64,000 nt of DNA from an uncultured bacterium. Lineage in GTDB: Bacteria > JACRDZ01. Positions 34,786-59,074 of the stretch are shown one piece after another. A program made the translations under genes and the position numbers. How positions within the stretch are numbered: position 1 is the stretch's first letter; every line of letters starts with the position of its first letter. The notes beneath the pieces are model-generated. The model did not search any database, was not told the DNA's origin, and saw only the letters and a list, made by a program, of their open reading frames with translations. Location of the stretch: the NCBI GenBank assembly GCA_964457585.1, contig CAYWFU010000003.1, forward strand, positions 5,500 to 69,499. Reading direction: 5' to 3'.

Positions 34786-34810
34786 CTTTCATAAAAGGAG
34801 GTGTAAAATA

Positions 34811-40621: not shown

Positions 40622-43600
40622 CTATCTGCTGCTAACATGCGAAAGCCCCATCACATTCCCTGCTAAATCCTGTACTTTTGTAATTGAAAGATCTATTGGT
40701 TGAAGAAGTTTCCCGTATCTTGGAATAACAGGTGTAATATAAGTATCATTTTTTTTATTTGTTGTAGTAAAAGTCCCTTCTTCTGTCAAAAGAACATTTT
40801 CACCTTTCACATCGGATACAACAATTGATGGAATGAAATTATTATCTAAAGATTCATTAAATATTATCTTTATCTGTGCAGCAAGATTTATATCATCTTC
40901 AGGAAAAATCGATTTAACAATTACCGGTTGTGTTTTATCCAGATATACCTTAATATTTGAATTTTCTATTTTCCCATCTTTATATTTCACAGAAATATAA
41001 AGATATTTTTCACCTTGAGTACCTTTTAATGTATATCTGACTTTTTCTGAATATTTAGACCATTTACCGCTTTTATATCCGGAATCTTCACTTATTTTTA
41101 TTTCATCAGCATCCTTAATATTAAAAAGTAAAGTAATATCCTCTCTTTTAGTATAGTCACCTTCCTTAACTTTAATTTTTTTCTGACGCGGATCTTCTTC
41201 TCCTGCATAAAATAGTAGTTTACTGAAAGTATCCATTTTATTACCTGTTGGATCTATAACCTGATCCATAACAAAAATAATGGCTCCTTTCATACTTTCA
41301 TCTAAAATAATTTCAGGGGTAATATATGTATCATTTTTGTTCTTATCCGAGGCAAAAGTGCCTTCATTTGCTATTAAATAATTTAAATGACTGCTGCTCA
41401 TGAGTACTATAGCCGGTTTTTCAGACTTTACTTCCTCGCTAAAATGGATGGTAATATTAAATGGTTTATTAAATTCGACTTTAGGAGGAAAATCAAACGC
41501 AGTAATAACAGGTTTATTTCTATCGAGTGTAACTTCTACCCTTTGAGGTTTGGATATATTTTTATTTTCGTCTTCAAATTTAAAGTATATTTTTTTTACT
41601 CCATCTTCTTGTGATAAATTAAATTCAAGGTCAGATGCATAATCTTCCCATTTAGTATTTTTAAAATCTACATCTTCTGACAGCATCATTTTTAATGCTC
41701 CAACTACAGAAATTGAAAAATTGATTTTTGGATTACGTACAAAAAGCCCTTCTTTAACAGCAATTTGCGTGGCAACAGGAGCATAAGTATCGAAATTAAA
41801 GCTTTTTTTCATATCCAGTTCCATTTCATTTTTTGCAAGATCAATGGCATTTTTTACTATAATTGTGATTGCTCCGCCCATGCTTTCATCAAATATAACA
41901 GGAGGTGAAGCAAAAGTATCATTTGGGAAGCGGATTGTCATAAAGCTTCCTTCACCAGACATTTCAGGACTTTTTTCACCAGTACTTACCATGCTTATTT
42001 CAGGGAAATAAGTTGTATCAAGAGATTCGTTGAATTGGACTTTAATTTGAGAACTTTCCCCAACTTTAATTGGGCTTGGATAAAAATAATTTATTATTTT
42101 TGGCGGTATTTTGTCAATGAAAACTGTAATTTTCTGCACTTCTGAAATATAACCAATTTTATCGCGGAATTGTATATATATATCTTTTTCCCCTTCTCCG
42201 CTTGATAATTTAAATCCATGTTCTTTTTTCAAAATCTCCCATTTGGCATTTTTAAAATTTTTATCTTCACTTAAAATCATTTCAACATTTTTACGATCTT
42301 TTTGTTCGTCAAATAAAAGAATAATATCATTTTTAATTGTATAATTTCCTCCTTCAACCTTAACATGCGGTGAAGGCGGAACTATATCATATCGGAATAA
42401 ATTATTCATAGTAGTTGGATCCATTATATTACCTGCTGTATCTTTAACTTCTTCAACCAGTACAGAGATATATCCTTCAAGTTTTTCAGGTAAAATAATC
42501 GGTGAAGTTATATATGTATCATTCATTAGTGTTGTTGATGAAATATTTCCATCTGGTAAAGTTAATGTTTCTTTCGACATGTTTTTTAATGTTATTTTCG
42601 GTTTCACAGAAGTATTAATTGGTTCATTAAATAGGAGCTTTATTTTGAAAGGTTCTTTTATTTTTGGAATATTGTATATCTGGTTTATTATTCGCGGAGG
42701 AGTTTTATCCAGATTTACAGCAAATTGACTTGTTGCTGAAAGCACACCGCTTTTACTACGTGTACGAAAATAAATATTCTTTTTCCCTTCGGTGGAAGAT
42801 AGATTAATTTTTTTCTCATTAGAGAATGGTTCAAAATTTTTCCCTTGAAAATTTGGATCCTCACCAATAATCATATTATCAGCTTCAGGTGCTTTTATAA
42901 GCAAAGTAATCTCCTGATTTGAAATATAATCACCTTCCTTAACTAAAAGAGCAGTATTCAAAATAAATTTACCCACAAAAATTTTATCCATTTTATTTCC
43001 GGTCAGGTCAAGAACGTTTTCAATATAAATTTCAATTTCCCCTGTCATATTTTCATCAAGAGTAATATCAGGAGTAATATATGTATCATTTTCTGCTCTG
43101 ACAAAAGAAAATCTGCCAGGCGCAATCTCTATCTCGTTTCCCTTTTCTTTTTCTTCTTCTTTCTGCCTTTTGCCTTCTGCCTTCTGCCTTTTGTTCACCA
43201 GAGTTACCTTTGGCAATATAAAAGGATTGCATGGTTCACTGAATATAAATGAAATTTGGAAATGAGTTGTAATATTTGCAGGATTTTGATATTCAGATGT
43301 TAACAATATTGGAGGTATTGTATCTGTTACAATACTCAAATTCCTTAAGACAACGGGTGATTCCATGATTGGTGCAAGAATTAATTTTCCTAAAGCATTG
43401 TCGTCAAAGTAATCATAAACAAATTTACTGATTATTACAGTATTCAATACTCCCCACCAGTTTTTAGAAACATCCAGATTTTGGTCGAATTTTGATAATT
43501 TAAAAGCATATTCTTTATTATTTAATATATTATTATTTTTTACAAGAAACGGACTATAAAATTCTTCACAATAAATACCCGTCATGTTTTCAGTGATATT

Positions 43601-45430
43601 ATTTTTAAATATCATAGGAGACGATCTATTTATATAAATACCATATTCAACATTTTGAGAAATATCATTATCGGAGATTGGCGGAGAAGACATTTCAATA
43701 CATTTTATACCGATTTGTGTATTTTTTATTATGCTATTGTTTGTAATTTTTGGAGATGATACACTTTCGCATTGTATCCCAATTTCATTAAATGAAAAGT
43801 AGCTGTTATTTATTTCAGGACTTGAAAAATTGATTGCAATTACTCCAACATTATTTTTCCGAAATTCACAAAAAGAGATATCGGGATTAGAATGATTATT
43901 GCAGATTAAACCTGAAATATTATTTTCAAATCTGGCATTTTCGATTTTAGCATTTGAACCAATAAGAACAAGCCCGCGATTGGCATTTTCAATATTAATA
44001 TATTTTAAAGAATTTTCTTCTGAATTTAAAATTTCTATCCCTTCCCAATCACCGGATTTTGGTTTTACGGAATTTGAATTGAAAGATATCTTATCCTCTT
44101 CCGTACCATTGGCAATTAGTTTCCCAAGAACTGAAATTTTAATATTTTTTTGACTTGTTGCATCAACCCAGAATTGCGTTCCCTGTTCAATCTGGAGTGT
44201 TGCGTCTGGTTCTATTTTAAAAGATTTTTGAATAAGGAATGGGCCCATGCTTTGCGTTAAAATCACATTTTGTTTAATATCTTTATTCAGAATAGCATTA
44301 TACTGTATAGGGATAAAATTAATTTTTACTGTAAATACTTCTGATTCAGCATTAAATGAATTTTTAAATTTAAGATAAAGAGTTTTAATTCCGGCTTTGC
44401 TGCTTAAAATAAAATTTTTTTTATCCTGATATTGTTCCCATTTAGCACCTGTAAAATCAGCATTTTCACTGATAATCATCTTAGTAGCTTGAGGAACAGT
44501 TATATTTAAATTTATATTTATAATTCTTGTAATTTCTCCTTCTTCTATATAAACAGGATTTTTATTTTTAATATAAAATAAGTCTGGATTAATAAAAAAT
44601 GTTTCTTTATCTTCGCGATCAATAATATTACCATTCAAACCGCGTGCATTTTCAATTATTATACGTGTAGCGCCTTTCATTTCTCTGGTTATTTTTAGCG
44701 GAGGGGTAAGTAAAGTATCATTATTAATGTATGTTGAATTGTATTCAATAAAATTGTAAGTAACTGTAAAATTATCTTTGTTTTCAACAGTAATCAACTT
44801 ATCTCCGGGATCTACCCATCTGCCAAATTCTATTTCTCCTAAAAATACTCCCGGATGCGTAATAAGTTCTTTAAGAGTATAGAATTCCCCTTCCGGTTCA
44901 TTTGCTGAAGAAGCTTTAATAATAATTTCATCATTGCCTGCGCCTGGTATTTTATTTTTACCGGAATCTTTTATAAGAATTTGCGGTTTAGATTCATATC
45001 CAAAATATTCTTTTGAATTCATCAATATCTCACCTTGCTTAATATCATTAAAAACTTGCTGTTCAAAAAGCGGAACCTGTTCAAAACGTCCAAAAAAATT
45101 TCCCTGGGCAGAGATCTGGGTTTCCAGCACAATAGTTTTTTGAGCACTGGTAACAATATATATAAAAGGAGCTACATTATTATCCATTGGCTGGTCAAAG
45201 ATAATTTTCATCTGGAATTCATCAGTTAAAGTAACGGGTTTTTGATATTCATAAGCAATAATCTTAGGTTTACGCGTATCAACTGTAACAATAAGTTCAT
45301 CAGATGAGCCGCTTTTTCCATCCATATTAGTTGCAAGAACTCTTATTATATTTTTGCCATCTATAAATACTACCTGTTCAGTAAATTGTCCATCTAATAC
45401 TGATATCACATTTGGTTTTCCATTTATCAA
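40622..45430 (-). CDS. Giant (1602 aa) repetitive surface/extracellular protein: right-handed parallel beta-helix repeats plus five or more tandem ~110-aa Ig-like modules
   Basis: Beta-helix repeats (NNSIIKNTQIGIKC…NDISQNVEYGIYI…NNITENMTGIYC…). Recurring module V(K/A)EGDY…ITLL(I/F)KA.DAD…SED..FKN.KWE.Y…F.LS…GEK.IY..F(R/K)D..G..S…V..D(K/R).(P/K)P.I. Immediately downstream of, and co-directional with, the 761-aa cytochrome gene. No clear N-terminal signal peptide at the annotated Met. Confidence 0.6.
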   Translation of the reverse strand: MINGKPNVISVLDGQFTEQVVFIDGKNIIRVLATNMDGKSGSSDELIVTVDTRKPKIIAYEYQKPVTLTDEFQMKIIFDQPMDNNVAPFIYIVTSAQKTIVLETQISAQGNFFGRFEQVPLFEQQVFNDIKQGEILMNSKEYFGYESKPQILIKDSGKNKIPGAGNDEIIIKASSANEPEGEFYTLKELITHPGVFLGEIEFGRWVDPGDKLITVENKDNFTVTYNFIEYNSTYINNDTLLTPPLKITREMKGATRIIIENARGLNGNIIDREDKETFFINPDLFYIKNKNPVYIEEGEITRIININLNITVPQATKMIISENADFTGAKWEQYQDKKNFILSSKAGIKTLYLKFKNSFNAESEVFTVKINFIPIQYNAILNKDIKQNVILTQSMGPFLIQKSFKIEPDATLQIEQGTQFWVDATSQKNIKISVLGKLIANGTEEDKISFNSNSVKPKSGDWEGIEILNSEENSLKYINIENANRGLVLIGSNAKIENARFENNISGLICNNHSNPDISFCEFRKNNVGVIAINFSSPEINNSYFSFNEIGIQCESVSSPKITNNSIIKNTQIGIKCIEMSSPPISDNDISQNVEYGIYINRSSPMIFKNNITENMTGIYCEEFYSPFLVKNNNILNNKEYAFKLSKFDQNLDVSKNWWGVLNTVIISKFVYDYFDDNALGKLILAPIMESPVVLRNLSIVTDTIPPILLTSEYQNPANITTHFQISFIFSEPCNPFILPKVTLVNKRQKAEGKRQKEEEKEKGNEIEIAPGRFSFVRAENDTYITPDITLDENMTGEIEIYIENVLDLTGNKMDKIFVGKFILNTALLVKEGDYISNQEITLLIKAPEADNMIIGEDPNFQGKNFEPFSNEKKINLSSTEGKKNIYFRTRSKSGVLSATSQFAVNLDKTPPRIINQIYNIPKIKEPFKIKLLFNEPINTSVKPKITLKNMSKETLTLPDGNISSTTLMNDTYITSPIILPEKLEGYISVLVEEVKDTAGNIMDPTTMNNLFRYDIVPPSPHVKVEGGNYTIKNDIILLFDEQKDRKNVEMILSEDKNFKNAKWEILKKEHGFKLSSGEGEKDIYIQFRDKIGYISEVQKITVFIDKIPPKIINYFYPSPIKVGESSQIKVQFNESLDTTYFPEISMVSTGEKSPEMSGEGSFMTIRFPNDTFASPPVIFDESMGGAITIIVKNAIDLAKNEMELDMKKSFNFDTYAPVATQIAVKEGLFVRNPKINFSISVVGALKMMLSEDVDFKNTKWEDYASDLEFNLSQEDGVKKIYFKFEDENKNISKPQRVEVTLDRNKPVITAFDFPPKVEFNKPFNITIHFSEEVKSEKPAIVLMSSSHLNYLIANEGTFASDKNKNDTYITPEIILDESMKGAIIFVMDQVIDPTGNKMDTFSKLLFYAGEEDPRQKKIKVKEGDYTKREDITLLFNIKDADEIKISEDSGYKSGKWSKYSEKVRYTLKGTQGEKYLYISVKYKDGKIENSNIKVYLDKTQPVIVKSIFPEDDINLAAQIKIIFNESLDNNFIPSIVVSDVKGENVLLTEEGTFTTTNKKNDTYITPVIPRYGKLLQPIDLSITKVQDLAGNVMGLSHVSSR
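43158..43195. repeat. Heptanucleotide tandem repeat (CTGCCTT x ~5; coding-strand AAGGCAG) inside the giant surface-protein gene
   Basis: Read directly: ctttctgcc ttttgcc ttctgcc ttctgcc ttttgtt. Encodes KRQKAEGKRQKEEEKEK. Same GAAGRCA-type unit as the dciA-like repeat. Confidence 0.6.
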
Positions 45431-45478
45431 TACCAGAGCTCTTGTTAATGATTGGTCATCAATGTTACCTGAACTAAT

Positions 45479-47764
45479 TTATTCATATTTTGTTAAAACA
45501 GCATTTTTTTTAGGTGATGTGATTTCTATTTTTGGACCGCTGGAAGATATAATAAAAGTAGTATCACTTTTTTCATCATCCAAATGAATATAAGCAGATT
45601 TTTTTCCTTCCTCTTCCTTTTTTTCTTTATCACGTATCATTTTAATATTTAATTCTCTTAGATGACAGGCTTCACATAATTGTTTTTCATCATTTTTAAT
45701 ACGTAAAAAACTATTTAGATTATCACCCTCAGCAATTTCCCTGTTTTTTGGTTCTTCAGGATCCCATTGGTGCACATCATGACAGGTTGCGCAGCTAACA
45801 TAATCCCAGAAACCGATATTTCCATCAATATCGTATAATGCCATAAAAGTTGGAGGAGGTGTGAGTTCTATATTACTTGGAGGAAATAATTTAGTTGAGT
45901 GATGTGCTGATAGTACTTTGGTACTTGCAGCACCTCCGGGACGATGGCAGAAATTACAGGATTTGGTAATATTATCTAAATTTTCCTGACGTGCAATATT
46001 TAATGTGAAAAGATATACAATTTCAGCATTATGCGGTGAATGACAGGCAGAACACGGTCCTGATAAAGAGACTTTTTCTCCTTTTAGATTAACGTAATTT
46101 GGATAGTTTAAAAATAAATCATGTTTGGTTTTTAATATTGTTTCTTTATCTTTATGACAATCTAAACATAATTCTGAATTGCTATTGGTCATATTCAAAA
46201 AACTATTTGTTCCATCACCTGTAATTGATCCGCTGAGTGAGATATTTAATAGCTGAAGATTAAATACAATATCTCCCTTTTTTATTTTTTCAATATTTTC
46301 TTCGGAAATAATTAAAGCAAAGATTTCTGATTCCTTGGCAAAAGGATTATAATTTAATACTTTTATTTTACCAATAATTTCACCATCTGCAAAAATAGAT
46401 AAAAGATTATCCTTTTTTACTTCTATTTTCATATTTTGATGGTCAACATATACATTTTTTCCTTTAATAAATATAATTTCTCCAATAGTCCCATTCTGGA
46501 GCATAGTTTTGTCTAATTTTATTTTTTCTTTTTTTACTTCACGTCCTAATTTTGACTTATCGGGTGACCATTGATGAACATTATGGCATGTGGTGCACTT
46601 TATCATTCCTTTACTTGATATTTTTCCATCTCTGCCAAAAAGAGGAAGGCTTGTAGTCATTTTCCATGAAGCTAATGCCAGATTTATAGGATGATAATTA
46701 TTCCCAATTAATTTTTTTTCAGCTATTTTACCTGATATATGACAACTGGTGCATTTTTTTGCTATAGTATCATCCTCAGGACCATATTCTCTGGCAAAAT
46801 TTTCTTTATCCTTCGCATTATGTACCAGATGACACGCGGAACATTGACCTGAATCGCCTGAAGATTTACCCCTGATATTTTTTTCATTAAAAGCTATTTC
46901 AAACATATCATGCGGACTGCCAATTATAAATCCCTGTGTTTTATGACAATTTACACATAAAGCAGAATTTAGCTGGTTGTTTATTCTTAAAAAACTGTTT
47001 TTTCCAATTCCATCTTCATTTTTATTTATTCCTGGTTTTTTTTCATCAGGAGACCATATATGAATATTATGACATGTTGCGCAGTTTATTTTTCCTTCAT
47101 ATTTTGGTTTACCATCGTCATCATAAAGCGGAAGAGTAGTAGTCAATCCCTTTTTTAACACTTCAATATTTAATGGATGGGAAAAATTATTCAAATTTTT
47201 AGATTTAGCGCAGCCGTTTTCATTATGACAGCTTTTACATAGCATTGTTAATATGTCTTCTGCAATATAAAAATTTTTAGCCCATAATTTTACCGTCTGG
47301 CCATTGTGCGCCAGATGACATGAAGAACATGGCCCCATTTTTCCTGTTGTCTGTTCTAAAATATTTTTTTCATCTGGAGCTGTAACTTTCATATCATGAT
47401 CTGTCCCAATAACAAATTTTTTATCATCATGACAGTTCACACAAAGAGAAGAAACGGGTAAATTAGGAATACGGAGCAAAAAAGTATAAGTTGTATCCTG
47501 CTTTTTTTGTCGTGCATAAGGATCATCAGTATGATATTTATGACAGGTTAAGCATGTAATTTTATCATCAAATAAAGGAAGAGTTGTGCGAAGTCCTGAG
47601 TCCTTCATTGAAATATTTACAGGATGCATCGTATATTTAGATGCAAAATGGCATGCATTGCAGGCAAGAGATGTATCATAATCAGCAGATGCAGCAGAAA
47701 AAATTTTTATTGAAAATATAGTTAGAAATATTAAAATTAGTGTTATTCTGTAATAAGAAATCAT
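45479..47764 (-). CDS. Multiheme c-type cytochrome, 15 CxxCH sites, secreted
   Basis: Signal peptide MISYYRITLILIFLTIFSIKIFSA. Manual count of 15 CxxCH motifs (CNACH, CLTCH, CVNCH, CSSCH, CKSCH, CATCH, CVNCH, CSACH, CTSCH, CTTCH, CLDCH, CSACH, CNFCH, CATCH, CEACH). Many are followed by a distal His (CxxCHxxH). Confidence 0.85.
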   Translation of the reverse strand: MISYYRITLILIFLTIFSIKIFSAASADYDTSLACNACHFASKYTMHPVNISMKDSGLRTTLPLFDDKITCLTCHKYHTDDPYARQKKQDTTYTFLLRIPNLPVSSLCVNCHDDKKFVIGTDHDMKVTAPDEKNILEQTTGKMGPCSSCHLAHNGQTVKLWAKNFYIAEDILTMLCKSCHNENGCAKSKNLNNFSHPLNIEVLKKGLTTTLPLYDDDGKPKYEGKINCATCHNIHIWSPDEKKPGINKNEDGIGKNSFLRINNQLNSALCVNCHKTQGFIIGSPHDMFEIAFNEKNIRGKSSGDSGQCSACHLVHNAKDKENFAREYGPEDDTIAKKCTSCHISGKIAEKKLIGNNYHPINLALASWKMTTSLPLFGRDGKISSKGMIKCTTCHNVHQWSPDKSKLGREVKKEKIKLDKTMLQNGTIGEIIFIKGKNVYVDHQNMKIEVKKDNLLSIFADGEIIGKIKVLNYNPFAKESEIFALIISEENIEKIKKGDIVFNLQLLNISLSGSITGDGTNSFLNMTNSNSELCLDCHKDKETILKTKHDLFLNYPNYVNLKGEKVSLSGPCSACHSPHNAEIVYLFTLNIARQENLDNITKSCNFCHRPGGAASTKVLSAHHSTKLFPPSNIELTPPPTFMALYDIDGNIGFWDYVSCATCHDVHQWDPEEPKNREIAEGDNLNSFLRIKNDEKQLCEACHLRELNIKMIRDKEKKEEEGKKSAYIHLDDEKSDTTFIISSSGPKIEITSPKKNAVLTKYE

Positions 47765-47960: not shown

Positions 47961-47988
47961 GTAGAGACGCAAAATTTTGCGTCTCTAC
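47961..47988. promoter_or_regulatory. Perfect 28-bp palindrome GTAGAGACGCAAAATTTTGCGTCTCTAC, 16 nt upstream of the NHL-protein ATG (copy 2 of 2)
   Basis: Perfect dyad (14+14). Followed by RBS GAGGGAG and the ATG at 48005. Same sequence (1 mismatch) at 34758-34785. Confidence 0.6.
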
Positions 47989-48004: not shown

Positions 48005-49036
48005 ATGGACAAAACTCTTAAAGATTTTTTAATATGTTGTTTTTTTTTATTATTTTCAACTTTAATATATTCTGCTGAAGAAAAAAAAGGAACATCAAAT
48101 CCCCCGCCGCATGTGCTTTATACTATCCCTTCTGATAAATTTAGACTTGAAAAAAAATTAAGTCGTCCAACCGGTGTTACTGTTTTTAATGGTGATATAT
48201 ATATATCAGATTCATTAAATAACAGGATTGTTGCATTTAATGACATGGGGGAACTTCTTTTTATTATTGGTAAAAAAGGCAGTGGACAGTGTGAGTTTCA
48301 AACCCCATCAGGTATTATTGCTGATGAAGAAAATATTTATGTGGTTGATACTTATAATTCCAGAATTCAGATTTTAGACAGAAAATACGGAGATTATAAA
48401 TATGAAATAAATTTTAGGGAAAAAGTAAGTGAGGAAGATCAGGATAAAAAGAAATTAGAAAAAGAAGAACCTGCTGAGAAAAAAATAGGTGGAGAAGAAT
48501 TGGTAGTTCAAAAGTCAGTCCCTGTTCCTATTGATTTTGAAATGGATACAAAAGGTAAAATATATGTAACTTTTAAACGAAATAGTACAGTCAGAGTATA
48601 TGATAAAAAAGGAAATTTTAAATATAAATTTGGTAAACCCGGGCAGAATGATGGAGAATTTTCAATAGCTACCTCAATAGCAGCAAACAATATTACCAGT
48701 GAAGTTGAAACAAAAATATATATAGTTGATACAATGAACTATCGTGTGCAGATTTTTAATGAAAGCGGTAAATTTTTGAATAAATTTGGCCGTCATTCAG
48801 ATGAAATGGATGGTTTTTTAATGCCAAGTTTAATCAGTTTAGATAACAATAGCAGAGTTTATGTTTATGATCGGGCTAAAGGTAAAATTCTCGTATACGA
48901 TAAAGATAGAAAATATCTATTCTATTTTGGTCGTAGTGAAAAGCTTGCTTTTGCTGAAGATCTTTTTATAGACCGCGATAATACTATTTACGTGGCAGAT
49001 ACATTAAATAATCGTATTGTAGTGTATGGGTATTAA
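48005..49036 (+). CDS. NHL-repeat six-bladed beta-propeller protein, secreted
   Basis: Signal peptide. Repeated NHL signatures (…SDSLNNRIVAF…, …DTYNSRIQIL…, …DTMNYRVQIF…, …DTLNNRIVVY…). Confidence 0.8.
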   Translation: MDKTLKDFLICCFFLLFSTLIYSAEEKKGTSNPPPHVLYTIPSDKFRLEKKLSRPTGVTVFNGDIYISDSLNNRIVAFNDMGELLFIIGKKGSGQCEFQTPSGIIADEENIYVVDTYNSRIQILDRKYGDYKYEINFREKVSEEDQDKKKLEKEEPAEKKIGGEELVVQKSVPVPIDFEMDTKGKIYVTFKRNSTVRVYDKKGNFKYKFGKPGQNDGEFSIATSIAANNITSEVETKIYIVDTMNYRVQIFNESGKFLNKFGRHSDEMDGFLMPSLISLDNNSRVYVYDRAKGKILVYDKDRKYLFYFGRSEKLAFAEDLFIDRDNTIYVADTLNNRIVVYGY

Positions 49037-49053
49037 ATAAAAGAGGATAGAGG

Positions 49054-52000
49054 ATGAATAAAAAAAGAAACATTTTTATTGTTATTTCTATTATTTTCAT
49101 TTTATTATGTGCAACTCTTATTTTAGCTCTTCAAGGTCCTCATGGGAATCAAAAATTAGCAGATAAATTAGGAGGAGAATTTGATCCTGGTATTTTATGG
49201 GGTACATGTGCTCAGTGTCATAAAGTACATGGTGGTTTAAAAAGTGCTCGTTTATGGTATGAAGATATTTCACCTAATCCGGATAAAGCGTCATTAGTTG
49301 AAAGATTATGCCGTTTTTGCCATACAACTGATGGATTGGGAAATGAATTTACTGATATAGAAGGAACTGTGCATGAGCGAAAAGGACATATCTTTCAGAA
49401 ATCAGGCAGGTATGATAAAGATGGTAATTTAATGGAAGGTTTTGATAGCATGTATTCCTATGAATTAGTATATGATACCCCAACAGGAGGTTCTCTTGTT
49501 TCATGTTATGTATGTCACGATCCGCATGGCAGTCAATATTTTGAAACACATGAATATATTGATAGAACAGATGCAAATACAAAATATTCAACTAAATATC
49601 CAAGTCCAACCTATGATACAGCATATAGAATGAGATTAGCTGATAATTATTTTGTGACAAGAGTATGGAGAAATATTAATCCTGAAAACTCTAATTTGCA
49701 ATGGGATAAAAAATTTTTAAAAAGTAGATTAGGTCTGGGTTTTTCCGCTGTCTCAAAAACTACTTATAGAGAATTTGCATATGGCAGTACGGAATTGTAT
49801 GGAGACAGAACAGTTAATATACGTGATTTATGTTTTAATTGTCATCGTCCTGAAGGTGTTATTCAAGATCCAGCAAAAAGTGGAGCTATAAATATCTGGG
49901 GAGATACAACTGTAAGAGCTGAAGAATATAGCAAAGTTTTTTCAACTGATACTACTGAAATAGTTACCCCGCCTATAGGTGAAATTATGATTTCATCCGG
50001 GAGACAACTGGGAGATGTTTATGATACAATATTATGGTTTTATAATAAAACAACGATAGACAGTCCTGGTCCTAATGCATTTTATGATAATGCAACTCAT
50101 ACCTGTGTAACAGGTTGCCATAATCCAATAGTTGGTGAAGAAAAACCTGATGTACCTGGCAATAATGAAGCATATTATAATACTGCTTATTGGTATTCAG
50201 TATCACAAGAAGTATTAGATCAGGATGTAGCTTTAAATAAATATGAAACAGTAAATCTTGGGAAAGATGAAACAGGTATTAATAATAGATATGGAACAAC
50301 TTATCTTTATTATTCTAAGTTAGCTTGTGTTTCATGTCATAACCAGCATGGTGAGTATTTCAGGTCAAAAACAACTCATCATCCATATGATTCAACAATA
50401 CCTTTGTATATTTCTAGGACAGATGGATTTAATCAAGATAAGTCGCGTAGATTCTGTCTTGGTTGTCATGATGAACATATAAAATTTCAGGCGCCTCGTC
50501 CGGTAGGATTAGGTGTAACTGTACCGGCAATTGTCCCTGCACATTTTGATGATACAACTAGTGATGTCAGAAATGATTTATGTACATATTGCCATTCATG
50601 GGATAAGCCATTAATAATTGGTGGTTCTGTTTGCGGCAGTTGTCATGGATTTCCTCCAAATTATTTTGATGATAAAAAAAATGATAAACCTGGTGTGCAT
50701 GAGACTCATGTAATAGCGGAAGGTTATTCATGCATAACATGTCATTATAAATATCAGCATAATCAAAATAAAATAGACAAACCTGAAGATTTTCGAAATC
50801 CGGATAAACCTTTTGACTCTTCATTTATTAATGTCACACTCGATTCATCTGCTAAAATATTTTATAAAACAATAGCTGAATATGGCAAGCCATTTGATAC
50901 AGCTTATAAAATAGACAGACGATATAATAGAAGAAGAGGTACACATACATATGGATATATCATTTTTAATAATGTTGATTATCAGGACACAACTCTTAAA
51001 AAAATGAGGCCTCTTATTCCTGATACTACACTGCACTTAAATATTTATTCTACTACTTCGGTAAGGTTGACTTTCCCGTATGACTCAGCAGACCCGGTAA
51101 GAACAGAAATTAAAAAATTTTCAAGATCAGAAATGTGCTTGATGTGTCATGATAATGAAGTTGTGATTAACGGGATTCTAACAACGGGTTATAAATATCC
51201 TATTGATGGACCATATATAGAATTGCCATTAACGATTAATGAAGTTTTTCGTAAACCATTGCCAATTATAAATATTCAAAAATACTATTTTCTTGTTGGT
51301 CATGGAACAAGTTTTACATCTACTCGCAAAAAACCGCATAATCCGTTTTATAATCAATATGAAGATATATCCAGAACAGATTGTACTGATTGTCATGTTC
51401 CTCATGGTTCAGATACATTTCCATTGATTAGAGAGTGGATTAAAGATCCGCATAAACCTTATAACTCTACTGCAACATTTAATTCAACTACAGTCGCATC
51501 AGATAATAGAATTTGTTATGCATGTCATTCAGACAGATTGGATAATGGTTTTTGGCCAGGGCGGCAGAAATATGAAACTTCTATTCATTATCAATATTAT
51601 GATGATAACGATAATGCAATTTCACGTGTTTTTGATAGAGATACCTCAAAACCGTGGGTTACAGATTTTAGTCAAAATCCAAAATATGGCGATAGATATA
51701 GATGGAGATTCAGGCATGATAGTACAATGTCAAATAACGGGTCTGGTGTAAATGCCCGCGGCGGCGGACGCTGTGTTAATTGCCATAATCCGCATGGTGA
51801 TGGGTCGTCAAATATTAATAAACCAACATATGATATTATGGATAGCTCCTATAAAAATATGACAAATTATGGAGGCTCAAAATTATGTTATCGTTGTCAT
51901 GTAAATCCAGCTCAGGATAATACAGGGGTAAGCAGAGTTGCATGGAAAGATGTAAATAGTAACTGGAACGATTATAATACTACATCATGGATAGATGCTG

Positions 52001-54684
52001 ATATCCAGAGACAATTTGAATCTACAAGAGAACCAAATATCCGTTACCCCGGATATAGAGGATCACATCATGATGTTGGTGGAACCCGTTATAATAGCAC
52101 AGGAAGAAATTGGGTGCAAAGAGGTGATTGGGGTTATTTAAGATATAATAACGGTTCATATTATGAGACTGTTTTTGACTGGAGAGGCTACGATCAAATA
52201 ATTAATTTATATGATTCATCAGGTGATGACTCAAGGATAGAATGTATAAACTGTCATAATCCGCATATTGTGCAAAGGGATAATCCATATACGACTACTG
52301 CAATTGAGTCCTTAATAAATCCGGATCCAAATAATGGTGTACATCCAGATTCGGTAAATAAGGAATCCCCATATGTAGAAGAAACAAAATTTGATACTTT
52401 CTTTTTAGTAAGTGGGTTAACGCGAATTAATAAACAAAAAGTATTAAATCGTTTTTGTTTGCGATGCCATGACCATGATGCCAATTTAACAAGCCACAAA
52501 GATTTTGATTTATATTCTGAGTTAGATCCGCCAGAATGGTTATATAATTATGATTCACTGCAAATTGGTTATGAAATATGGAAGAAAAATCCAAGTATTA
52601 ATCCGGAACTTTTCAGGATGAGAAATGGAATATCCGCTGCTAATAATAAATTTTATGGTGAATTACCACGAGCAGTGGTATTTCCAAAAATAGAAAGAAA
52701 TATCTTTGTATGGGAGAAATGGGATAAATCATGGTTTTATTTCAGATCAGGACATGGAAAATTTGAAGATAATCCTGGAAATAATTATGATACTACCACT
52801 TCATGTATGGGATGTCATTATCCTCATGGAAGTTATATCCCAAAACTTTTAAGAACAGATACAACTGATACTAAAATAGTGCCGCAGGACAATGGTGCAG
52901 TTTACTGCTATAGATGTCATGAATTCCCGATAAATAATGGCTTCTGGAATGGAAAAGCAGGATGGAATGATGGTCCAAATAGAATTGCAATTCCTGAAGT
53001 TTTTGCGCAATATCAAAAAGGATTTGATAGTTCAATTCATAGTAAATATCCAAAAAGCTTTGAATCGCGTACATTCCCGAATAATAAAAATGTGAATATG
53101 TATAATTCAACATTGGGTTATGATACATCTGATGCAGGAAAATGTATTAATTGTCATGATCCTCATGGAACAGTGCGGCAGTCAGAAGGAAATGGATATT
53201 ATCAAACAATGGGATATCCAAATATGACCTATGGATATAAAGAAAATCTTTGTTATGATTGTCATGATGATAAAGCAACAAGATGGAAAAATGTAACAGG
53301 TGATGATGCAAATGGAATGGATCTAAAATCTATTTTTGGCAGTACTAATATTTCCCGTTCAAGGCATGATGTAGATACAACATCTGAAATGGGCGGAGAT
53401 AAAGCCTGGGATACAACACTGGATTATATATTAGGTGCCAATGGAGTAAATAGGGGCGATGATAGACGTATTGAATGTATCAGTTGTCATAATGTGCATG
53501 TAATAACAGGTAAATATGAAACAGGTAAAATTTATACCCCGGTTACACATCCGGAAAATCCTGCGTTATTAATTCGTGATTATGATACTGTTAATAACTG
53601 GCGGAATGGAAGAGCAATGAACACATTTTGTTTAGAATGTCATGATACAGGATGGGATACAACAGTTAATCTGTCAACAACAGTTGATAGAAGATATAAA
53701 TCACCGACTTATTTAATATTAAATAATGAATTTTTACCGCGTCCCGTTGTTTTCCCTAATTCAACAACAATCGTAGATAATAGTTACGATAATCAAGGAG
53801 ATCAACCTGCTGATCGCACAATTTGGTGGGCTGGCAACAAAAAGAGATTTTCTTTATATTATAATAAAGCGCCATATTATTACATTAATGGTCATGGGTC
53901 AGACAGTACAAGATCATATGGTGTGCCTGACGGACCAAATTTAATCCGTGTACCAATGAATGTATTATGTATTGATTGTCATGATCCTCATGCATCAACA
54001 AATATTAAACTTATCAGGGATATTGTTTTAAGATTTATTAGAAAATATAGAGTAGATACATCATTGGTTACAAATTATAAAAATAAGGTTCGGAATGAAA
54101 CAAAACTTTCAAGAGTAGACCCGCCTGGAGCAGCAGGCAGAGCAAAAGAATTATATTGCAACTGGGCATGTCATAATCCGGAATATAAGCATATTTTTAC
54201 TTATGTGCGTGATGATGACGGAAATTATTACGATTGGCCAAGCGGTGATCCTGAACAATTATTGGTTGATACAACTTCCTATCATGCGTATCGTTTAGAA
54301 ACTTATAGTGCAACAGGAAGATATATTAAAAGAGGAGATCTTGATGTTGGTTTTGCACATGGTAATGATTATTTACCAGGGCAGATCGGATATAAACAAT
54401 TTTCACCAAAATTCACTGCTGATCAATCAGATGTTGATGAAATGAAAGATACATTTAATCCAGTTACAAATACATATTTAGCCGTAGATAGCAGTAAAGT
54501 AATACCAGTAGGCGGCAGTGCGGAAGGTGATTATTATCGTCTTATGTGCTTAACATGTCATAATCCGCATGGTACAACAGATGATACAACAGATTTTAGA
54601 GAAGATAGACGCGGAATGACAGTATATGATCCAGATTCTGATGATATTAATTTATGTGCTCATTGCCATTGGAGAGCAAGATAA
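49054..54684 (+). CDS. Giant multiheme c-type cytochrome (1876 aa; about 25 CxxCH plus 2 CxxxCH sites)
   Basis: N-terminal signal/anchor MNKKRNIFIVISIIFILLCATLILA. Manual count of 25 CxxCH motifs, many in the form CxxCH(D/N)PHG, plus CVTGCH and CNWACH variants. RBS-coupled 17 nt after the NHL gene. Confidence 0.85.
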   Translation: MNKKRNIFIVISIIFILLCATLILALQGPHGNQKLADKLGGEFDPGILWGTCAQCHKVHGGLKSARLWYEDISPNPDKASLVERLCRFCHTTDGLGNEFTDIEGTVHERKGHIFQKSGRYDKDGNLMEGFDSMYSYELVYDTPTGGSLVSCYVCHDPHGSQYFETHEYIDRTDANTKYSTKYPSPTYDTAYRMRLADNYFVTRVWRNINPENSNLQWDKKFLKSRLGLGFSAVSKTTYREFAYGSTELYGDRTVNIRDLCFNCHRPEGVIQDPAKSGAINIWGDTTVRAEEYSKVFSTDTTEIVTPPIGEIMISSGRQLGDVYDTILWFYNKTTIDSPGPNAFYDNATHTCVTGCHNPIVGEEKPDVPGNNEAYYNTAYWYSVSQEVLDQDVALNKYETVNLGKDETGINNRYGTTYLYYSKLACVSCHNQHGEYFRSKTTHHPYDSTIPLYISRTDGFNQDKSRRFCLGCHDEHIKFQAPRPVGLGVTVPAIVPAHFDDTTSDVRNDLCTYCHSWDKPLIIGGSVCGSCHGFPPNYFDDKKNDKPGVHETHVIAEGYSCITCHYKYQHNQNKIDKPEDFRNPDKPFDSSFINVTLDSSAKIFYKTIAEYGKPFDTAYKIDRRYNRRRGTHTYGYIIFNNVDYQDTTLKKMRPLIPDTTLHLNIYSTTSVRLTFPYDSADPVRTEIKKFSRSEMCLMCHDNEVVINGILTTGYKYPIDGPYIELPLTINEVFRKPLPIINIQKYYFLVGHGTSFTSTRKKPHNPFYNQYEDISRTDCTDCHVPHGSDTFPLIREWIKDPHKPYNSTATFNSTTVASDNRICYACHSDRLDNGFWPGRQKYETSIHYQYYDDNDNAISRVFDRDTSKPWVTDFSQNPKYGDRYRWRFRHDSTMSNNGSGVNARGGGRCVNCHNPHGDGSSNINKPTYDIMDSSYKNMTNYGGSKLCYRCHVNPAQDNTGVSRVAWKDVNSNWNDYNTTSWIDADIQRQFESTREPNIRYPGYRGSHHDVGGTRYNSTGRNWVQRGDWGYLRYNNGSYYETVFDWRGYDQIINLYDSSGDDSRIECINCHNPHIVQRDNPYTTTAIESLINPDPNNGVHPDSVNKESPYVEETKFDTFFLVSGLTRINKQKVLNRFCLRCHDHDANLTSHKDFDLYSELDPPEWLYNYDSLQIGYEIWKKNPSINPELFRMRNGISAANNKFYGELPRAVVFPKIERNIFVWEKWDKSWFYFRSGHGKFEDNPGNNYDTTTSCMGCHYPHGSYIPKLLRTDTTDTKIVPQDNGAVYCYRCHEFPINNGFWNGKAGWNDGPNRIAIPEVFAQYQKGFDSSIHSKYPKSFESRTFPNNKNVNMYNSTLGYDTSDAGKCINCHDPHGTVRQSEGNGYYQTMGYPNMTYGYKENLCYDCHDDKATRWKNVTGDDANGMDLKSIFGSTNISRSRHDVDTTSEMGGDKAWDTTLDYILGANGVNRGDDRRIECISCHNVHVITGKYETGKIYTPVTHPENPALLIRDYDTVNNWRNGRAMNTFCLECHDTGWDTTVNLSTTVDRRYKSPTYLILNNEFLPRPVVFPNSTTIVDNSYDNQGDQPADRTIWWAGNKKRFSLYYNKAPYYYINGHGSDSTRSYGVPDGPNLIRVPMNVLCIDCHDPHASTNIKLIRDIVLRFIRKYRVDTSLVTNYKNKVRNETKLSRVDPPGAAGRAKELYCNWACHNPEYKHIFTYVRDDDGNYYDWPSGDPEQLLVDTTSYHAYRLETYSATGRYIKRGDLDVGFAHGNDYLPGQIGYKQFSPKFTADQSDVDEMKDTFNPVTNTYLAVDSSKVIPVGGSAEGDYYRLMCLTCHNPHGTTDDTTDFREDRRGMTVYDPDSDDINLCAHCHWRAR

Positions 54685-54757
54685 GAAGATCTGGATTTTT
54701 GACATTCTTGTTATTCAGGTGTCATAATTTAGTCATACTTTATATTGTACTGTAGTT

Positions 54758-54773
54758 GCTCGATTTATCGAGC
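54758..54773 (+). terminator. Probable intrinsic terminator hairpin GCTCGATTTATCGAGC followed by TTAATTTTAATTT
   Basis: 6-bp stem, 4-nt loop, T-rich tail. Nearly identical 35-bp module recurs at 58810-58845. Confidence 0.5.
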
Positions 54774-54957
54774 TTAATTTTAATTTAAAAAAAAATAAAC
54801 TTTTTTGAAACGCATTTGTATATTGCTAATGAAGGTACAAAAAAAGATAAAGCCTGCATTGAGAAGTTTTATGAGATGTAGATGTAGTGGCTGGATTACT
54901 ATCCAGCTCTCAAATAAGCAATGTTTTTAACTATTCAAGGTTTGCGGGAGAATTGCA

Positions 54958-58749: not shown

Positions 58750-58821
58750 AATTATAATTTAAGTACAGGAAATTGAAAAAGCCCAATGAATTGGGCAACT
58801 ACAATATATTGTAATGTAGTT

Positions 58822-58837
58822 GCTCGATTTATCGAGC
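58822..58837 (+). terminator. Second copy of the GCTCGATTTATCGAGC hairpin module (possible terminator/attenuator; weaker T-tract)
   Basis: Flanking sequence TTGTAATGTAGTTGCTCGATTTATCGAGCCTAATTTA matches the 54745-54785 module almost exactly. Confidence 0.4.
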
Positions 58838-58852
58838 CTAATTTAAGGAGTT

Positions 58853-59074
58853 ATGATGGCAACAACAGGAGTTCTAAAAAATATAGCGCGTAAAGTTACG
58901 CTTGAATTGATTTATGAAGTAGTTGATGAGCGAACTAAAGAACTAAAAGAAGAAATTCAGGAAATAAATGTAGAAATAAGAGCTATGAATACACGTATGG
59001 ATCAGCAATATATGGCTCTAAATGCAAGATTAGATCAAATATATGCAATATTACTGCAGGAGAAAAAGGTATAG
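58853..59074 (+). CDS. Small coiled-coil hypothetical protein (73 aa) between giant cytochrome genes
   Basis: ORF with RBS AAGGAG upstream. Heptad-like pattern (…ELKEEIQEINVEIRAMNTRMDQQYMALNARLDQIYAIL…). Followed by a perfect palindrome AGCGAATTGCAATTCGCT (59081-59098). Confidence 0.4.
   Translation: MMATTGVLKNIARKVTLELIYEVVDERTKELKEEIQEINVEIRAMNTRMDQQYMALNARLDQIYAILLQEKKV

What the first reader, a model, noticed from the sequence alone, without database searches (positions are those of the whole stretch)
40622..45430. 1602-aa beta-helix + Ig-module protein directly downstream of a 15-heme cytochrome
Seen: the giant gene starts 46 nt after the cytochrome stop on the same strand. It combines parallel beta-helix repeats with at least five tandem ~110-aa Ig-like modules. 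The annotated Met lacks a signal peptide. Inference: it could be an S-layer or adhesin that anchors or organises the cytochromes, or could even carry covalently unrelated cofactors. Either way the cytochrome/adhesin coupling is unusual.
Basis: partly seen in the sequence, partly recalled or inferred. Interest (0 to 1): 0.6.

Follow-up and report, generated by a model that had tools for sequence, protein, structure and literature searches.

The report
Giant haem protein split by stop
The "1602-aa protein next to a cytochrome" is the back two-thirds of one giant exported multi-haem protein that a single in-frame stop codon has cut in two, so the split is ordinary, but the intact protein family has not been studied.

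Summary
The ORF is real: 40622-45430, minus strand, 1602 aa, with a beta-helix and Ig-like modules. It is not a separate gene. It lies in the same frame as the upstream 15-haem cytochrome ORF (45479-47764), separated by one TAA (45479-45481) plus 16 sense codons. A Pfam Ig-like domain (Glucodextran_B) spans the stop. Orthologues from Firestonebacteria and Desantisbacteria MAGs are single polypeptides; the best is 2394 aa, 57% identical over 100% of the joined query. They align across the stop without a gap, and the 16 "spacer" codons are as conserved as the flanking coding sequence. No terminator, Shine-Dalgarno motif or signal peptide precedes the TTG.

The intact 2380-aa protein reads: signal peptide, 15-haem module, linker, Ig domain, A/B beta-sandwich modules, polysaccharide-enzyme-like beta-helix, then four and a half more A-B pairs. 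I infer a haem wire tethered in the cell envelope or matrix. As sequenced, only an 85-kDa cytochrome would be made.

Reads are needed to tell a real nonsense mutation (my preference) from a base-call error. The split is mundane. The bacterial cytochrome/beta-helix/Ig fusion family is uncharacterised and resembles the large ANME archaeal cytochromes that carry a pectin-lyase-like domain.

The parts
40622..47764 (-). One 7.14-kb reading frame of 2380 codons, interrupted once. It is the ancestral single gene for a giant multi-haem cytochrome / Ig / beta-helix protein. The final stop is TAG at 40622-40624.
   Evidence: Translating 47764 to 40622 gives only one internal stop, at codon 762. P0001 (2394 aa) covers 100% of the joined sequence at 57% identity. 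tblastn gives a single HSP over query residues 2-2377 in L001.
47693..47764 (-). Signal-peptide-like N-terminus (aa 1-24, MISYYRITLILIFLTIFSIKIFSA|AS).
   Evidence: Read by eye from the translation; no predictor was run. The orthologues also have hydrophobic N-termini. An AAGG Shine-Dalgarno-like motif precedes the ATG.
45650..47692 (-). 15-haem c-type cytochrome module (aa 25-705; CxxCH motifs from aa 35 to 701).
   Evidence: 15 CxxCH motifs, all invariant across 13 family members together with candidate distal His residues. Pfam Mtrc-MtrF_II-IV_dom 77.5 bits, Paired_CXXCH_1 75.5, Cytochrome_C7 59.7, Cytochrom_c3_2 52.2.
46205..46492 (-). Haem-free insert of about 95 aa inside the cytochrome module (aa ~425-520). 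It is conserved in the family (N473, P474 and G497 invariant).
   Evidence: There is a gap in CxxCH spacing between aa 390 and 533. The only Pfam hint is a sub-threshold SH3-like match, MSSS, E=0.011. Fold not determined.
45275..45544 (-). Ig-like domain (Glucodextran_B type, aa 741-830) that contains the in-frame stop.
   Evidence: With the stop masked, Pfam PF09136 scores 33.7 bits (cut-off 27) over profile positions 1-75 of 83. For the ORF alone it scores 17.1 bits over profile 39-75. In the AlphaFold2 model of the orthologue, the stop-equivalent residue H28 lies in strand E27-34 and strand E12-16 lies upstream of it.
45479..45481 (-). In-frame TAA (codon 762), reading TTA on the plus strand. 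This is the only interruption of the gene.
   Evidence: It aligns without gaps to H, V, A, Q, Q and E in P0001, P0002, P0003, P0004, P0005 and P0044. CAA or GAA is one substitution away from TAA.
45431..45478 (-). The 48-nt supposed intergenic spacer. It is 16 sense codons (ISSGNIDDQSLTRALV) of the Ig domain.
   Evidence: It is 56% identical to P0001, the same as the flanking coding regions (57%) and higher than the true linker at aa 706-740 (36%). It contains no terminator. No Shine-Dalgarno motif lies in the 25 nt before the TTG, whereas 16 of 25 other genes have one.
44597..45280 (-). A-type beta-sandwich module split by an insert of about 115 aa (aa 829-890 and 1007-1056).
   Evidence: An HMM built from the five C-terminal A modules hits both halves, at E=3.8e-13 and 8.4e-9. 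The region is all-beta in the orthologue model.
44309..44554 (-). B-type beta-sandwich module (aa 1071-1152).
   Evidence: This copy was part of the seed, so its score is not independent. The module type recurs in many haem-free giant proteins. Pfam has no model for it.
43340..44296 (-). Right-handed parallel beta-helix (aa ~1157-1475) with the conserved NWWG cap region.
   Evidence: Pfam Beta_helix and NosD. AlphaFold2 model with pLDDT above 90 over the core. Foldseek PDB matches are AlgG, AlgE4, the RbmB lyase, PL6 lyases, phage tailspikes and NosD, with E from 1e-4 to 1e-2 and 10-16% identity.
40625..43324 (-). Array A-B-A-B-A-B-A-B-A (aa 1481-2380). The protein ends at the last A module, with no recognisable anchor.
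   Evidence: Neither Pfam nor NCBIfam finds a sorting or anchor domain.
47961..47988 (.). 28-bp perfect palindrome in the divergent promoter region between this gene and the NHL/cytochrome operon. It is a candidate shared operator or 5'-UTR hairpin.
   Evidence: A second copy lies at 34759-34786, upstream of a small ferredoxin-like ORF. None is expected by chance.
48005..64000 (+). Divergently transcribed neighbours. These are an NHL beta-propeller (48005-49036) and three giant multi-haem cytochromes. The cytochromes are at 49054-54684 (25 CxxCH), 54958-58749 (14) and about 59120/59171 to beyond 64000 (at least 24-25; it runs off the window).
   Evidence: Pfam results and motif counts.

Best explanation
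The 1602-aa ORF is not an independent gene. It is the C-terminal two-thirds of a single gene of about 2380 codons (47764 to 40622, minus strand), cut by one in-frame TAA at 45479-45481.

The intact protein, as still encoded in related MAGs, has the following order:
- A Sec-type signal peptide.
- A 15-haem c-type cytochrome module with a haem-free insert.
- A Lys/Glu-rich linker.
- An Ig-like domain, which is where the stop falls.
- An A module with an insert, then a B module.
- A right-handed parallel beta-helix of the polysaccharide-binding / polysaccharide-modifying type.
- Four and a half more A-B beta-sandwich pairs.

Shown: the single frame, the domain spanning the stop, the collinear uninterrupted orthologues, and the absence of start, export or termination signals at the junction.

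Inferred, TAA: it is most likely a genuine and recent nonsense mutation, perhaps CAA or GAA to TAA. I put this at about 65-70%, from my own rough priors on pseudogene frequency versus consensus error rates. A base-call or assembly error is about 20-25%. As sequenced, the cell would export only an 85-kDa, 15-haem cytochrome carrying a 21-residue stub of the Ig domain. The 182-kDa remainder would not be made or exported.

Inferred, function (about 50%): the intact 269-kDa protein is an envelope or extracellular electron-transfer protein. Its haem chain would be tethered and positioned by a glycan-binding beta-helix and a long Ig-like stalk. It would work alongside the neighbouring NHL-propeller / giant-cytochrome cluster.
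For: - Same frame with one internal stop.
- Pfam Glucodextran_B spans the stop: 33.7 bits over profile 1-75 of 83, against 17.1 bits for the half domain.
- P0001 (Firestonebacteria, 2394 aa) is 57% identical over 100% of the joined sequence. P0002, P0003, P0004, P0005, P0006, P0007 and P0011-P0015 are also cytochrome plus beta-helix fusions.
- The junction aligns without gaps, with the stop opposite H/V/A/Q/Q/E.
- The 16 spacer codons are 56% identical to P0001 and the flanks 57%.
- The orthologue genes are single ORFs in their contigs: L001 2399 codons with 15 CxxCH, L003 2330 codons with 15 CxxCH.
- No terminator in the junction and no Shine-Dalgarno motif before the TTG.
- Searching with the 1602 aa alone, every strong homologue except the window's own database entry (P0043, called as 1595 aa) carries cytochrome domains.
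- In 1.84 billion representatives, the only new proteins with full-length collinear profile matches carry CxxCH motifs: P0168 has 9 and P0171 has 3.
- In the structure model the stop-equivalent residue sits inside a beta-strand of a confidently folded Ig domain.
- Function: all 15 CxxCH are invariant in 13 relatives. The beta-helix fold matches polysaccharide epimerases, lyases and tailspikes. The Ig arrays match giant adhesins and an S-layer protein. The adjacent NHL plus three giant MHC genes resemble published NHL/MHC electron-transfer clusters (PMC9769857, PMC10734462).
Against: - No reads or second assembly of this organism covering the junction could be obtained, so a real mutation cannot be separated from a sequencing error.
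- The 1602 codons after the stop are perfectly intact. This fits a very recent mutation, an error, or continued expression equally well.
- The function is inferred entirely from domain content and neighbours.
- The nearest orthologues do not sit next to NHL or cytochrome genes on their contigs, which are short.
- No outer-membrane secretion or anchoring signal was found in what appears to be a diderm (BamA, an LptD-like protein), so extracellular localisation is unproven.
- One distant relative (P0005) ends in a SPOR peptidoglycan-binding domain, which hints at a periplasmic attachment.
Confidence: 0.85

Rival explanations
1. The TAA is a sequencing, assembly or consensus artefact, or a minority allele. 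In the organism the gene is intact and makes the full 269-kDa fusion protein.
For: The downstream 1602 codons carry no further lesion. Identity to orthologues is as high after the stop as before it. Related MAG assemblies of this family do contain obvious assembly defects. One is a frame change with a deletion of about 47 residues in L002; another is a chimeric fusion of P0003 to CTP synthase.
Against: The defects seen in the relatives are indels or collapses within repeats. This one is a clean substitution in a non-repeated domain. By general knowledge, consensus substitution errors are rare in short-read assemblies. No reads were available to test it.
Confidence: 0.22
2. One reading: two genuine genes in an operon. 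One encodes a secreted 15-haem cytochrome. The other encodes a separately translated beta-helix/Ig 'adhesin' that organises it.
For: Gene callers split the region this way; P0043, 1595 aa from a GTG, is the database entry for this sequence. There is no terminator between the ORFs.
Against: - The ORFs share a frame, and the 16 intervening codons are conserved as protein.
- The ORF begins in the middle of an Ig domain.
- It has no Shine-Dalgarno motif and no signal peptide, although it consists entirely of exported-type domains.
- No collinear homologue was found as a stand-alone protein without haem motifs among the hits examined, from 5.8 billion proteins and 1.84 billion representatives searched.
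Confidence: 0.04
3. Programmed partial read-through of the TAA. This would give an abundant free 15-haem cytochrome and a rare tethered long form from one gene.
For: The stop lies exactly between the redox module and the tether. The downstream frame is intact, and both products would be plausible proteins.
Against: - TAA is the normal and commonest stop codon in this window: 20 of 30 long ORFs end with it.
- No orthologue has a stop at this position.
- The stop sits inside a beta-strand rather than in the linker.
- The RNA downstream folds no better than shuffled sequence, z = -1.4.
- No suppressor tRNA is present in the window.
- By general knowledge, efficient TAA read-through is not established in bacteria.
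Confidence: 0.04
4. Functional rival, compatible with the single-gene conclusion: the intact protein stays in the periplasm. There it would be attached to peptidoglycan or periplasmic glycan, as a periplasm-filling electron conduit or store or as a NosD-like maturation scaffold. It would not be a cell-surface or extracellular wire.
For: Only a Sec-type signal is present and no outer-membrane secretion signal was detected. The organism looks diderm (BamA, an LptD-like protein, a BamD-like TPR protein). There is a Pfam NosD match, and the structural neighbours AlgG and NosD are periplasmic. The distant relative P0005 ends in a SPOR domain.
Against: Twelve beta-sandwich modules plus a beta-helix plus a 15-haem chain look far longer than a periplasm is wide. 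That is my estimate from typical domain sizes and was not computed. The same B module and beta-helix blocks dominate haem-free giant proteins of 1000-7600 aa, which look like surface adhesins. No nos genes are present in the window.
Confidence: 0.25

Closest known systems
ANME archaeal giant multi-haem cytochromes: MHC type C (pectin-lyase-like domain) and types A/B (S-layer domain). Chadwick et al. 2022, PMC9012536.
   Same: One very large exported polypeptide joins many CxxCH haems to a haem-free carbohydrate-binding or cell-surface domain. In type C that domain is a pectin-lyase-fold beta-helix. The proposed role is extracellular electron transfer through or beyond the cell envelope.
   Different: - The organism here is bacterial and apparently diderm.
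- The domain order is reversed: cytochrome at the N-terminus and beta-helix internal, whereas type C has an N-terminal pectin-lyase region.
- It has 15 haems rather than 20-86.
- It carries an Ig domain and eleven A/B beta-sandwich modules.
- It has no S-layer (DUF1608) domain and no C-terminal transmembrane helix.
- Sequence homology to the ANME proteins was not tested, and they did not appear among the hits.
MtrC/OmcA-type outer-surface decahaem cytochromes (Shewanella).
   Same: Pfam's MtrC/MtrF domain II/IV model matches the haem module at 77.5 bits (cut-off 30) in three stretches. Both are multi-haem c-type cytochromes.
   Different: NCBIfam's decahaem model scores far below its cut-off, 36.5 against 192 bits. 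The module has 15 haems with a different insert. No MtrAB-type porin or periplasmic partner was identified next to it. No PDB chain matches by sequence.
NHL-propeller plus large-MHC gene clusters: Desulfovibrio ferrophilus DFE_0448-0451 / DFE_0461-0465, the Uet cluster of Tenderiales and Gallionella, and PCC3 giant cytochromes.
   Same: The divergent neighbours are an NHL beta-propeller followed by three giant MHCs with 25, 14 and at least 24 haems. This is the same gene-content pattern described in PMC9769857 and PMC10734462. The haem module's homologues include many 1300-2000-aa cytochromes from Nitrospirota, Desulfobulbaceae and Fe/S-oxidising Proteobacteria.
   Different: Those systems are not described as having a cytochrome fused to a beta-helix/Ig tether. 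Orthology of the window's NHL or MHC genes to DFE, Uet or PCC3 components was not tested. The closest orthologues of the fusion gene are not next to such clusters.
CASH / pectin-lyase-fold beta-helix proteins: NosD, AlgG, AlgE4, PL6 lyases, RbmB, phage tailspikes.
   Same: Pfam Beta_helix and NosD both score above their cut-offs. The confident AlphaFold2 beta-helix has these proteins as its nearest solved folds.
   Different: Only 10-16% identity and weak Foldseek E-values (1e-4 to 1e-2). Catalytic residues were not examined. No NosFY/NosZ or alginate genes lie nearby. Here the domain is one module of a 2380-aa cytochrome.
Giant Ig-repeat adhesins and S-layer proteins (SiiE, GhpA, Deinococcus HPI).
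   Same: A tandem beta-sandwich array; these are the top structural matches of the Ig / A / B region. The B module and beta-helix recur in many haem-free giant proteins of 1000-7600 aa.
   Different: About 10% sequence identity. No T1SS, SLH or other secretion or anchor signal was detected. The A and B modules are not covered by any Pfam model.

Membership tests
Multi-haem c-type cytochrome | Multiple CxxCH haem-attachment motifs in an exported protein | tested here: met
   15 CxxCH motifs in aa 35-701, all invariant in 13 relatives, with a hydrophobic signal-like N-terminus. Four cytochrome Pfam models score above their cut-offs. This applies to the upstream ORF and the joined protein. The 1602-aa ORF alone has none.
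MtrC/OmcA (DmsE-type) decahaem family | Whole-protein match to the decahaem family model, with ten haems in the MtrC four-domain layout | tested here: not met
   NCBIfam TIGR03508 scores 36.5 bits against a cut-off of 192.2. The protein has 15 haems. Only the Pfam domain II/IV model matches.
NosD (N2O-reductase maturation) | A beta-helix matching the NosD model | tested here: met
   PF05048 scores 43.6 bits (cut-off 23.6) over profile positions 15-176 of 212. NosD chains appear among the fold matches at E of about 1e-2.
NosD (N2O-reductase maturation) | Genomic and functional association with the NosFY ABC transporter, NosL and NosZ | tested here: not met
   No nos genes appear among the window ORFs scanned with Pfam. 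The one ABC/FtsX pair, at 21764-23648, is MacB-like and about 20 kb away.
ANME-type MHC fused to a surface or carbohydrate domain | A single polypeptide with more than 10 haems plus a pectin-lyase-fold or S-layer domain | tested here: met
   Architecture only. The joined frame and its orthologues carry 15 haems plus a beta-helix, as described in PMC9012536.
ANME-type MHC fused to a surface or carbohydrate domain | Sequence homology to ANME MHC-A, B or C; an S-layer DUF1608 domain; a C-terminal transmembrane helix | tested here: not met
   No S-layer domain hit in Pfam. The C-terminus ends in an A module with no hydrophobic tail. No archaeal proteins appear among the listed homologues. No direct comparison with ANME sequences was run.
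Cell-surface sorted proteins (LPXTG/sortase, PEP-CTERM, T9SS CTD, SLH) | A recognisable C- or N-terminal sorting or anchoring domain | tested here: not met
   None was found with Pfam at E<=0.01 or NCBIfam at E<=0.01.
Independent protein-coding gene (for the 1602-aa ORF) | Its own translation start (an SD and a start codon at a domain boundary), with homologues that begin at the equivalent position | tested here: not met
   No Shine-Dalgarno motif. The start lies inside an Ig domain. All collinear homologues continue upstream into a cytochrome.
Programmed stop-codon read-through / recoding | Conservation of the stop in relatives, a stimulatory RNA element, or codon reassignment | tested here: not met
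   Relatives have sense codons at this position. The downstream RNA fold has z = -1.4. TAA terminates most ORFs in the window. Other adjacent same-frame ORF pairs, such as ClpC and BamA, are unrelated genes.
Pseudogene (genuine nonsense mutation) | The stop is supported by the underlying reads or by independent isolates | not testable with these tools
   No reads were available. Exact-protein look-ups and two metagenome scans found no second copy of the junction. A Logan assembly of SRR12113406 holds the same organism's LysRS, but only on a 2.9-kb contig.

The most novel reading that the evidence does not exclude
The TAA is not a defect but a leaky stop placed between the redox module and the tether. 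One gene would then yield a free, diffusible 15-haem cytochrome and, at low frequency, a 269-kDa matrix-anchored form. That would be a bacterial example of functional TAA read-through that sets the ratio of soluble to tethered electron carriers.
Probability: 0.04. Interest if true: 0.75.

Novelty: new variant of a known kind. Interest (0 to 1): 0.35.

Why it matters
For annotation, this is a clear case of a single in-frame stop turning one giant gene into an "orphan" 1602-aa protein with no signal peptide. The same sequence is already deposited that way (P0043).

For biology, the intact gene defines a small, uncharacterised bacterial family found in MAGs labelled Firestonebacteria, Desantisbacteria and 'Poribacteria'. 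In this family a 15- to 37-haem wire is covalently joined to a glycan-type beta-helix and a long Ig-like stalk. The only published parallel I found is the ANME archaeal MHC with a pectin-lyase-like domain.

With the adjacent NHL/giant-cytochrome cluster, the locus holds at least 78 haem-attachment motifs. It therefore points to extracellular or envelope electron transfer in candidate phyla for which my searches found no such report. If that holds, the family offers a testable model for how cells fix haem conduits in a polysaccharide matrix.

Tried and rejected
- Exact-sequence look-ups of the window's 761-aa cytochrome, the NHL protein, P0002 and P0043 found no contig. The cluster look-up of P0043 gave no name or accession.
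- An exact DNA pattern across the stop with NNN at the codon, and a protein-guided scan of metagenome contigs, found no near-identical second copy. The stop therefore could not be cross-checked.
- The genome-contig scan did not return the window's own genome.
- PDB sequence searches with both ORFs found nothing.
- Systematic recoding was rejected. TAA is the main stop codon, and other same-frame neighbouring ORF pairs, such as ClpC and BamA 3 nt apart, are unrelated genes.
- A read-through-stimulating RNA structure was not supported.
- Rfam found only a tRNA-Ser in the window.
I modelled the P0001 orthologue across the junction instead.
- Conserved synteny with NHL or cytochrome genes was not found around the nearest orthologues, whose contigs are short.
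- Pfam at E<=10 does not recognise the A module, the B module, the A-module insert or the cytochrome insert.
- Literature searches for Desantisbacteria or Firestonebacteria together with multi-haem cytochromes gave nothing relevant.
Full report
**Observation.**
The ORF exists as described: window 40622-45430, minus strand, 1602 aa counted from a TTG. Immediately upstream on the same strand lies a 761-aa ORF (45479-47764). It has exactly 15 CxxCH motifs and a hydrophobic, signal-peptide-like N-terminus. Pfam confirms a right-handed beta-helix in the large ORF (Beta_helix 61.9 bits, NosD 43.6 bits) and several multi-haem cytochrome models in the upstream ORF. The open frame cannot be chance. At this base composition log10 P(no stop in 1602 codons) is about -62, and the two other frames of the same strand carry 126 and 211 stops. 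The gap between the ORFs is 48 nt, not 46.

The two ORFs are in the same reading frame. Translating 47764 down to 40622 gives 2380 codons with one internal stop, a TAA at 45479-45481. The 16 codons between that TAA and the TTG 'start' read ISSGNIDDQSLTRALV.

Three independent lines show the stop interrupts a single gene:
- **A domain spans the stop.** With the stop masked, Pfam's Glucodextran_B Ig-like domain matches across it. The score is 33.7 bits (cut-off 27) over profile positions 1-75 of 83. The 1602-aa ORF alone matches only profile positions 39-75, at 17.1 bits.
- **Orthologues are single polypeptides.** A search of 5.8 billion proteins with the joined sequence returns P0001, a 2394-aa Firestonebacteria MAG protein that is 57% identical over 100% of the query. 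P0002 (2171 aa), P0003 (2327 aa, Desantisbacteria), P0004, P0005, P0006, P0007 and P0011-P0015 all carry both cytochrome and beta-helix domains. In their contigs the P0001 and P0003 genes are uninterrupted ORFs of 2399 and 2330 codons, each with 15 CxxCH.
- **The junction aligns without gaps.** The stop sits opposite H, V, A, Q, Q and E in six relatives, so CAA or GAA to TAA is a one-step change. The 16 'spacer' codons are 56% identical to P0001. The flanking Ig sequence is 57% identical, and the real low-complexity linker at aa 706-740 only 36%.

**Start and export signals.**
No terminator-like site lies in the junction. No Shine-Dalgarno-like motif lies in the 25 nt before the TTG, whereas 16 of 25 other genes in the window have one. 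The ORF has no signal peptide, although it consists entirely of domains typical of exported proteins. An AlphaFold2 model of the P0001 segment (pLDDT 78) puts the stop-equivalent residue inside strand E27-34 of a confidently folded beta-sandwich, with strand E12-16 encoded upstream of it. The 1602-aa 'protein' therefore begins in the middle of a domain.

**Is the linkage to cytochromes general?**
I searched with the 1602 aa alone. The only strong hit without cytochrome domains is the window's own database entry, P0043: 100% identical, called as 1595 aa from a GTG, on a 104,788-bp NCBI contig. The other strong hits (P0044, P0001, P0002, P0003, P0004 and P0006) all carry cytochrome domains.

I then searched 1.84 billion representatives with a profile of the Ig / A / B / beta-helix region. 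Full-length collinear matches to proteins not already in the set occur only in P0168 (9 CxxCH) and P0171 (3 CxxCH). Of the 145 new hits, 144 have fewer than four CxxCH. They match only the B module or the beta-helix, often many times, in giant proteins of 1000-7600 aa. The non-haem part is therefore built from widespread giant-surface-protein modules, and a small clade has them fused to a haem module.

**Anatomy of the joined protein** (aa numbering of the 2380-codon frame):

| aa | feature |
|---|---|
| 1-24 | signal-like N-terminus |
| 25-705 | 15-haem module, all motifs invariant in 13 relatives |
| ~425-520 | conserved haem-free insert within the haem module |
| 706-740 | Lys/Glu-rich linker |
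| 741-830 | Ig-like domain, stop at codon 762 |
| 829-890 and 1007-1056 | A module, split by an insert |
| 1071-1152 | B module |
| ~1157-1475 | beta-helix |
| 1481-2380 | A-B-A-B-A-B-A-B-A, ending without any recognisable anchor |

Pfam has no model for the A or B modules. The window's own beta-helix models with pLDDT 83.5 and pTM 0.81. Its nearest solved folds are AlgG, AlgE4, the RbmB polysaccharide lyase, PL6 alginate lyases, phage tailspikes and NosD, all at low identity and weak E-values. The Ig / A / B region resembles the tandem arrays of giant adhesins (SiiE, GhpA) and the Deinococcus HPI S-layer protein.

**Genomic context.**
An NHL beta-propeller gene (48005-49036) is transcribed divergently, followed by three giant multi-haem cytochromes. 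They have 25 CxxCH in 1876 aa, 14 in 1263 aa, and at least 24-25 in an ORF that runs off the window. With the 15 haems here, the locus carries at least 78 haem motifs. NHL plus large-MHC clusters are described in Desulfovibrio ferrophilus and in the Uet system (PMC9769857, PMC10734462).

BamA, an LptD-like protein and a BamD-like TPR protein in the window suggest a diderm. LysRS is 79-80% identical to proteins from MAGs labelled Desantisbacteria and 'Poribacteria'. The nearest orthologues of the fusion gene are not flanked by cytochromes or NHL genes on their short contigs, so the neighbourhood is not demonstrably conserved.

**Most likely mechanism.**
- **Shown:** one ancestral gene, now interrupted.
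- **Inferred, product:** as sequenced, translation stops after the haem module. The cell would export an 85-kDa apo-protein with 15 haems and a 21-residue stub of the Ig domain. The 182-kDa remainder would not be made or exported (masses).
- **Inferred, nature of the TAA:** I judge a genuine, recent nonsense mutation most likely, at roughly 65-70%. This rests on my own rough priors that long genes are large mutational targets and that clean consensus substitutions are rare in short-read assemblies. A base-call or consensus error is about 20-25%.
- **Rejected alternatives:** programmed read-through is unlikely. TAA is the usual stop here, the relatives have sense codons, the downstream RNA folds no better than shuffles (z = -1.4), and the stop sits in a beta-strand rather than the linker. 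A truly separate gene is very unlikely.
- **Inferred, function (about 50%):** the intact 269-kDa protein is an envelope or extracellular electron-transfer component. Its haem chain would be held in place by a glycan-binding beta-helix and a long Ig-like stalk. The main functional rival is a periplasmic location. That rival is supported by the Sec-only signal, the periplasmic habit of NosD and AlgG, and the SPOR domain at the end of distant relative P0005.

**Comparison with known systems.**
- **Closest published analogue:** the giant ANME archaeal cytochromes. MHC types A and B carry S-layer domains and type C carries a pectin-lyase-like domain; all are proposed as conduits through the cell surface (PMC9012536). 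The present family shares the principle of many haems plus a beta-helix or surface domain in one polypeptide. [quoted passage not shown] Homology to the ANME proteins was not tested.
- **MtrC/OmcA family:** it is not a member (NCBIfam 36.5 against 192 bits).
- **NosD:** it matches the NosD domain model but lacks the nos gene context.

I found no paper on multi-haem cytochromes in Desantisbacteria and none relevant for Firestonebacteria. That library is limited to open-access full text.

**Verdict.**
The gene split is ordinary: a pseudogene or a sequencing error that misled ORF-based reading and also the database annotation. It belongs to an uncharacterised bacterial variant of a known kind of protein, so interest is moderate.

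Noticed in passing
window 47961-47988 and 34759-34786: A 28-bp perfect palindrome, GTAGAGACGCAAAATTTTGCGTCTCTAC, occurs twice; the second copy has one mismatch and none is expected by chance. Each copy lies just upstream of a Shine-Dalgarno motif and start codon. One precedes the NHL / giant-cytochrome operon, in the divergent region shared with the fusion gene. The other precedes a 60-aa 2x[4Fe-4S]-ferredoxin-like ORF with its ATG at about 34811. The flanks are unrelated, so it looks like a shared operator or 5'-UTR hairpin of an electron-transfer regulon rather than a mobile element.
   Followed up: partly
window 48005-64000 (+): An NHL beta-propeller gene is followed by three giant multi-haem cytochromes: 1876 aa with 25 CxxCH, 1263 aa with 14, and more than 1610 aa with at least 24 that runs off the window end. 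This resembles the published NHL/MHC electron-transfer clusters DFE_0448-0465 and Uet.
   Followed up: partly
window 39600-40604 (+): A 334-aa ORF combines an IS200-like Y1 transposase domain with a DnaA C-terminal helix-turn-helix. It converges on the giant ORF and ends 17 nt from that ORF's TAG stop. It could be a RAYT-like domesticated transposase. Any relation to the palindrome above was not established.
   Followed up: no
window 25232-29134 (-): A haem-free 1300-aa ORF with two Glucodextran_B Ig-like domains, the same domain type as at the junction, and no other recognisable domain.
   Followed up: no
L002 (JACQWU010000318.1) ~4578-4605; P0003 / L003 (JACQWU010000228.1) 3' end: The Desantisbacteria relatives show assembly-type defects in this gene family. 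L002 changes frame and lacks about 47 residues inside the A/B repeat array. P0003's last A module runs straight into a CTP synthase sequence and is named 'CTP synthase, partial'. Repeats in these genes are evidently hard to assemble and annotate.
   Followed up: partly
P0005 (2828 aa, unclassified MAG), C-terminus: This distant family member (32% identity) carries a long low-complexity tail that ends in a SPOR peptidoglycan-binding domain, PF05036. It is the only anchoring clue in the family and points to a peptidoglycan attachment.
   Followed up: no
window 13975-18852 (-) and 18870-19922 (-): ClpC (820 aa) and BamA (803 aa) lie in the same frame only 3 nt apart. They are unrelated genes, which serves as a control showing that a shared frame alone means little. 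An McsB-like ATP:guanido phosphotransferase sits upstream of ClpC in an organism that also has BamA and an LptD-like protein.
   Followed up: yes
L099 (Logan SRR12113406_6403): A LysRS identical to the window's (23658-25124) is present in a Logan assembly of run SRR12113406. That run therefore contains this organism and could settle whether the TAA is real.
   Followed up: partly
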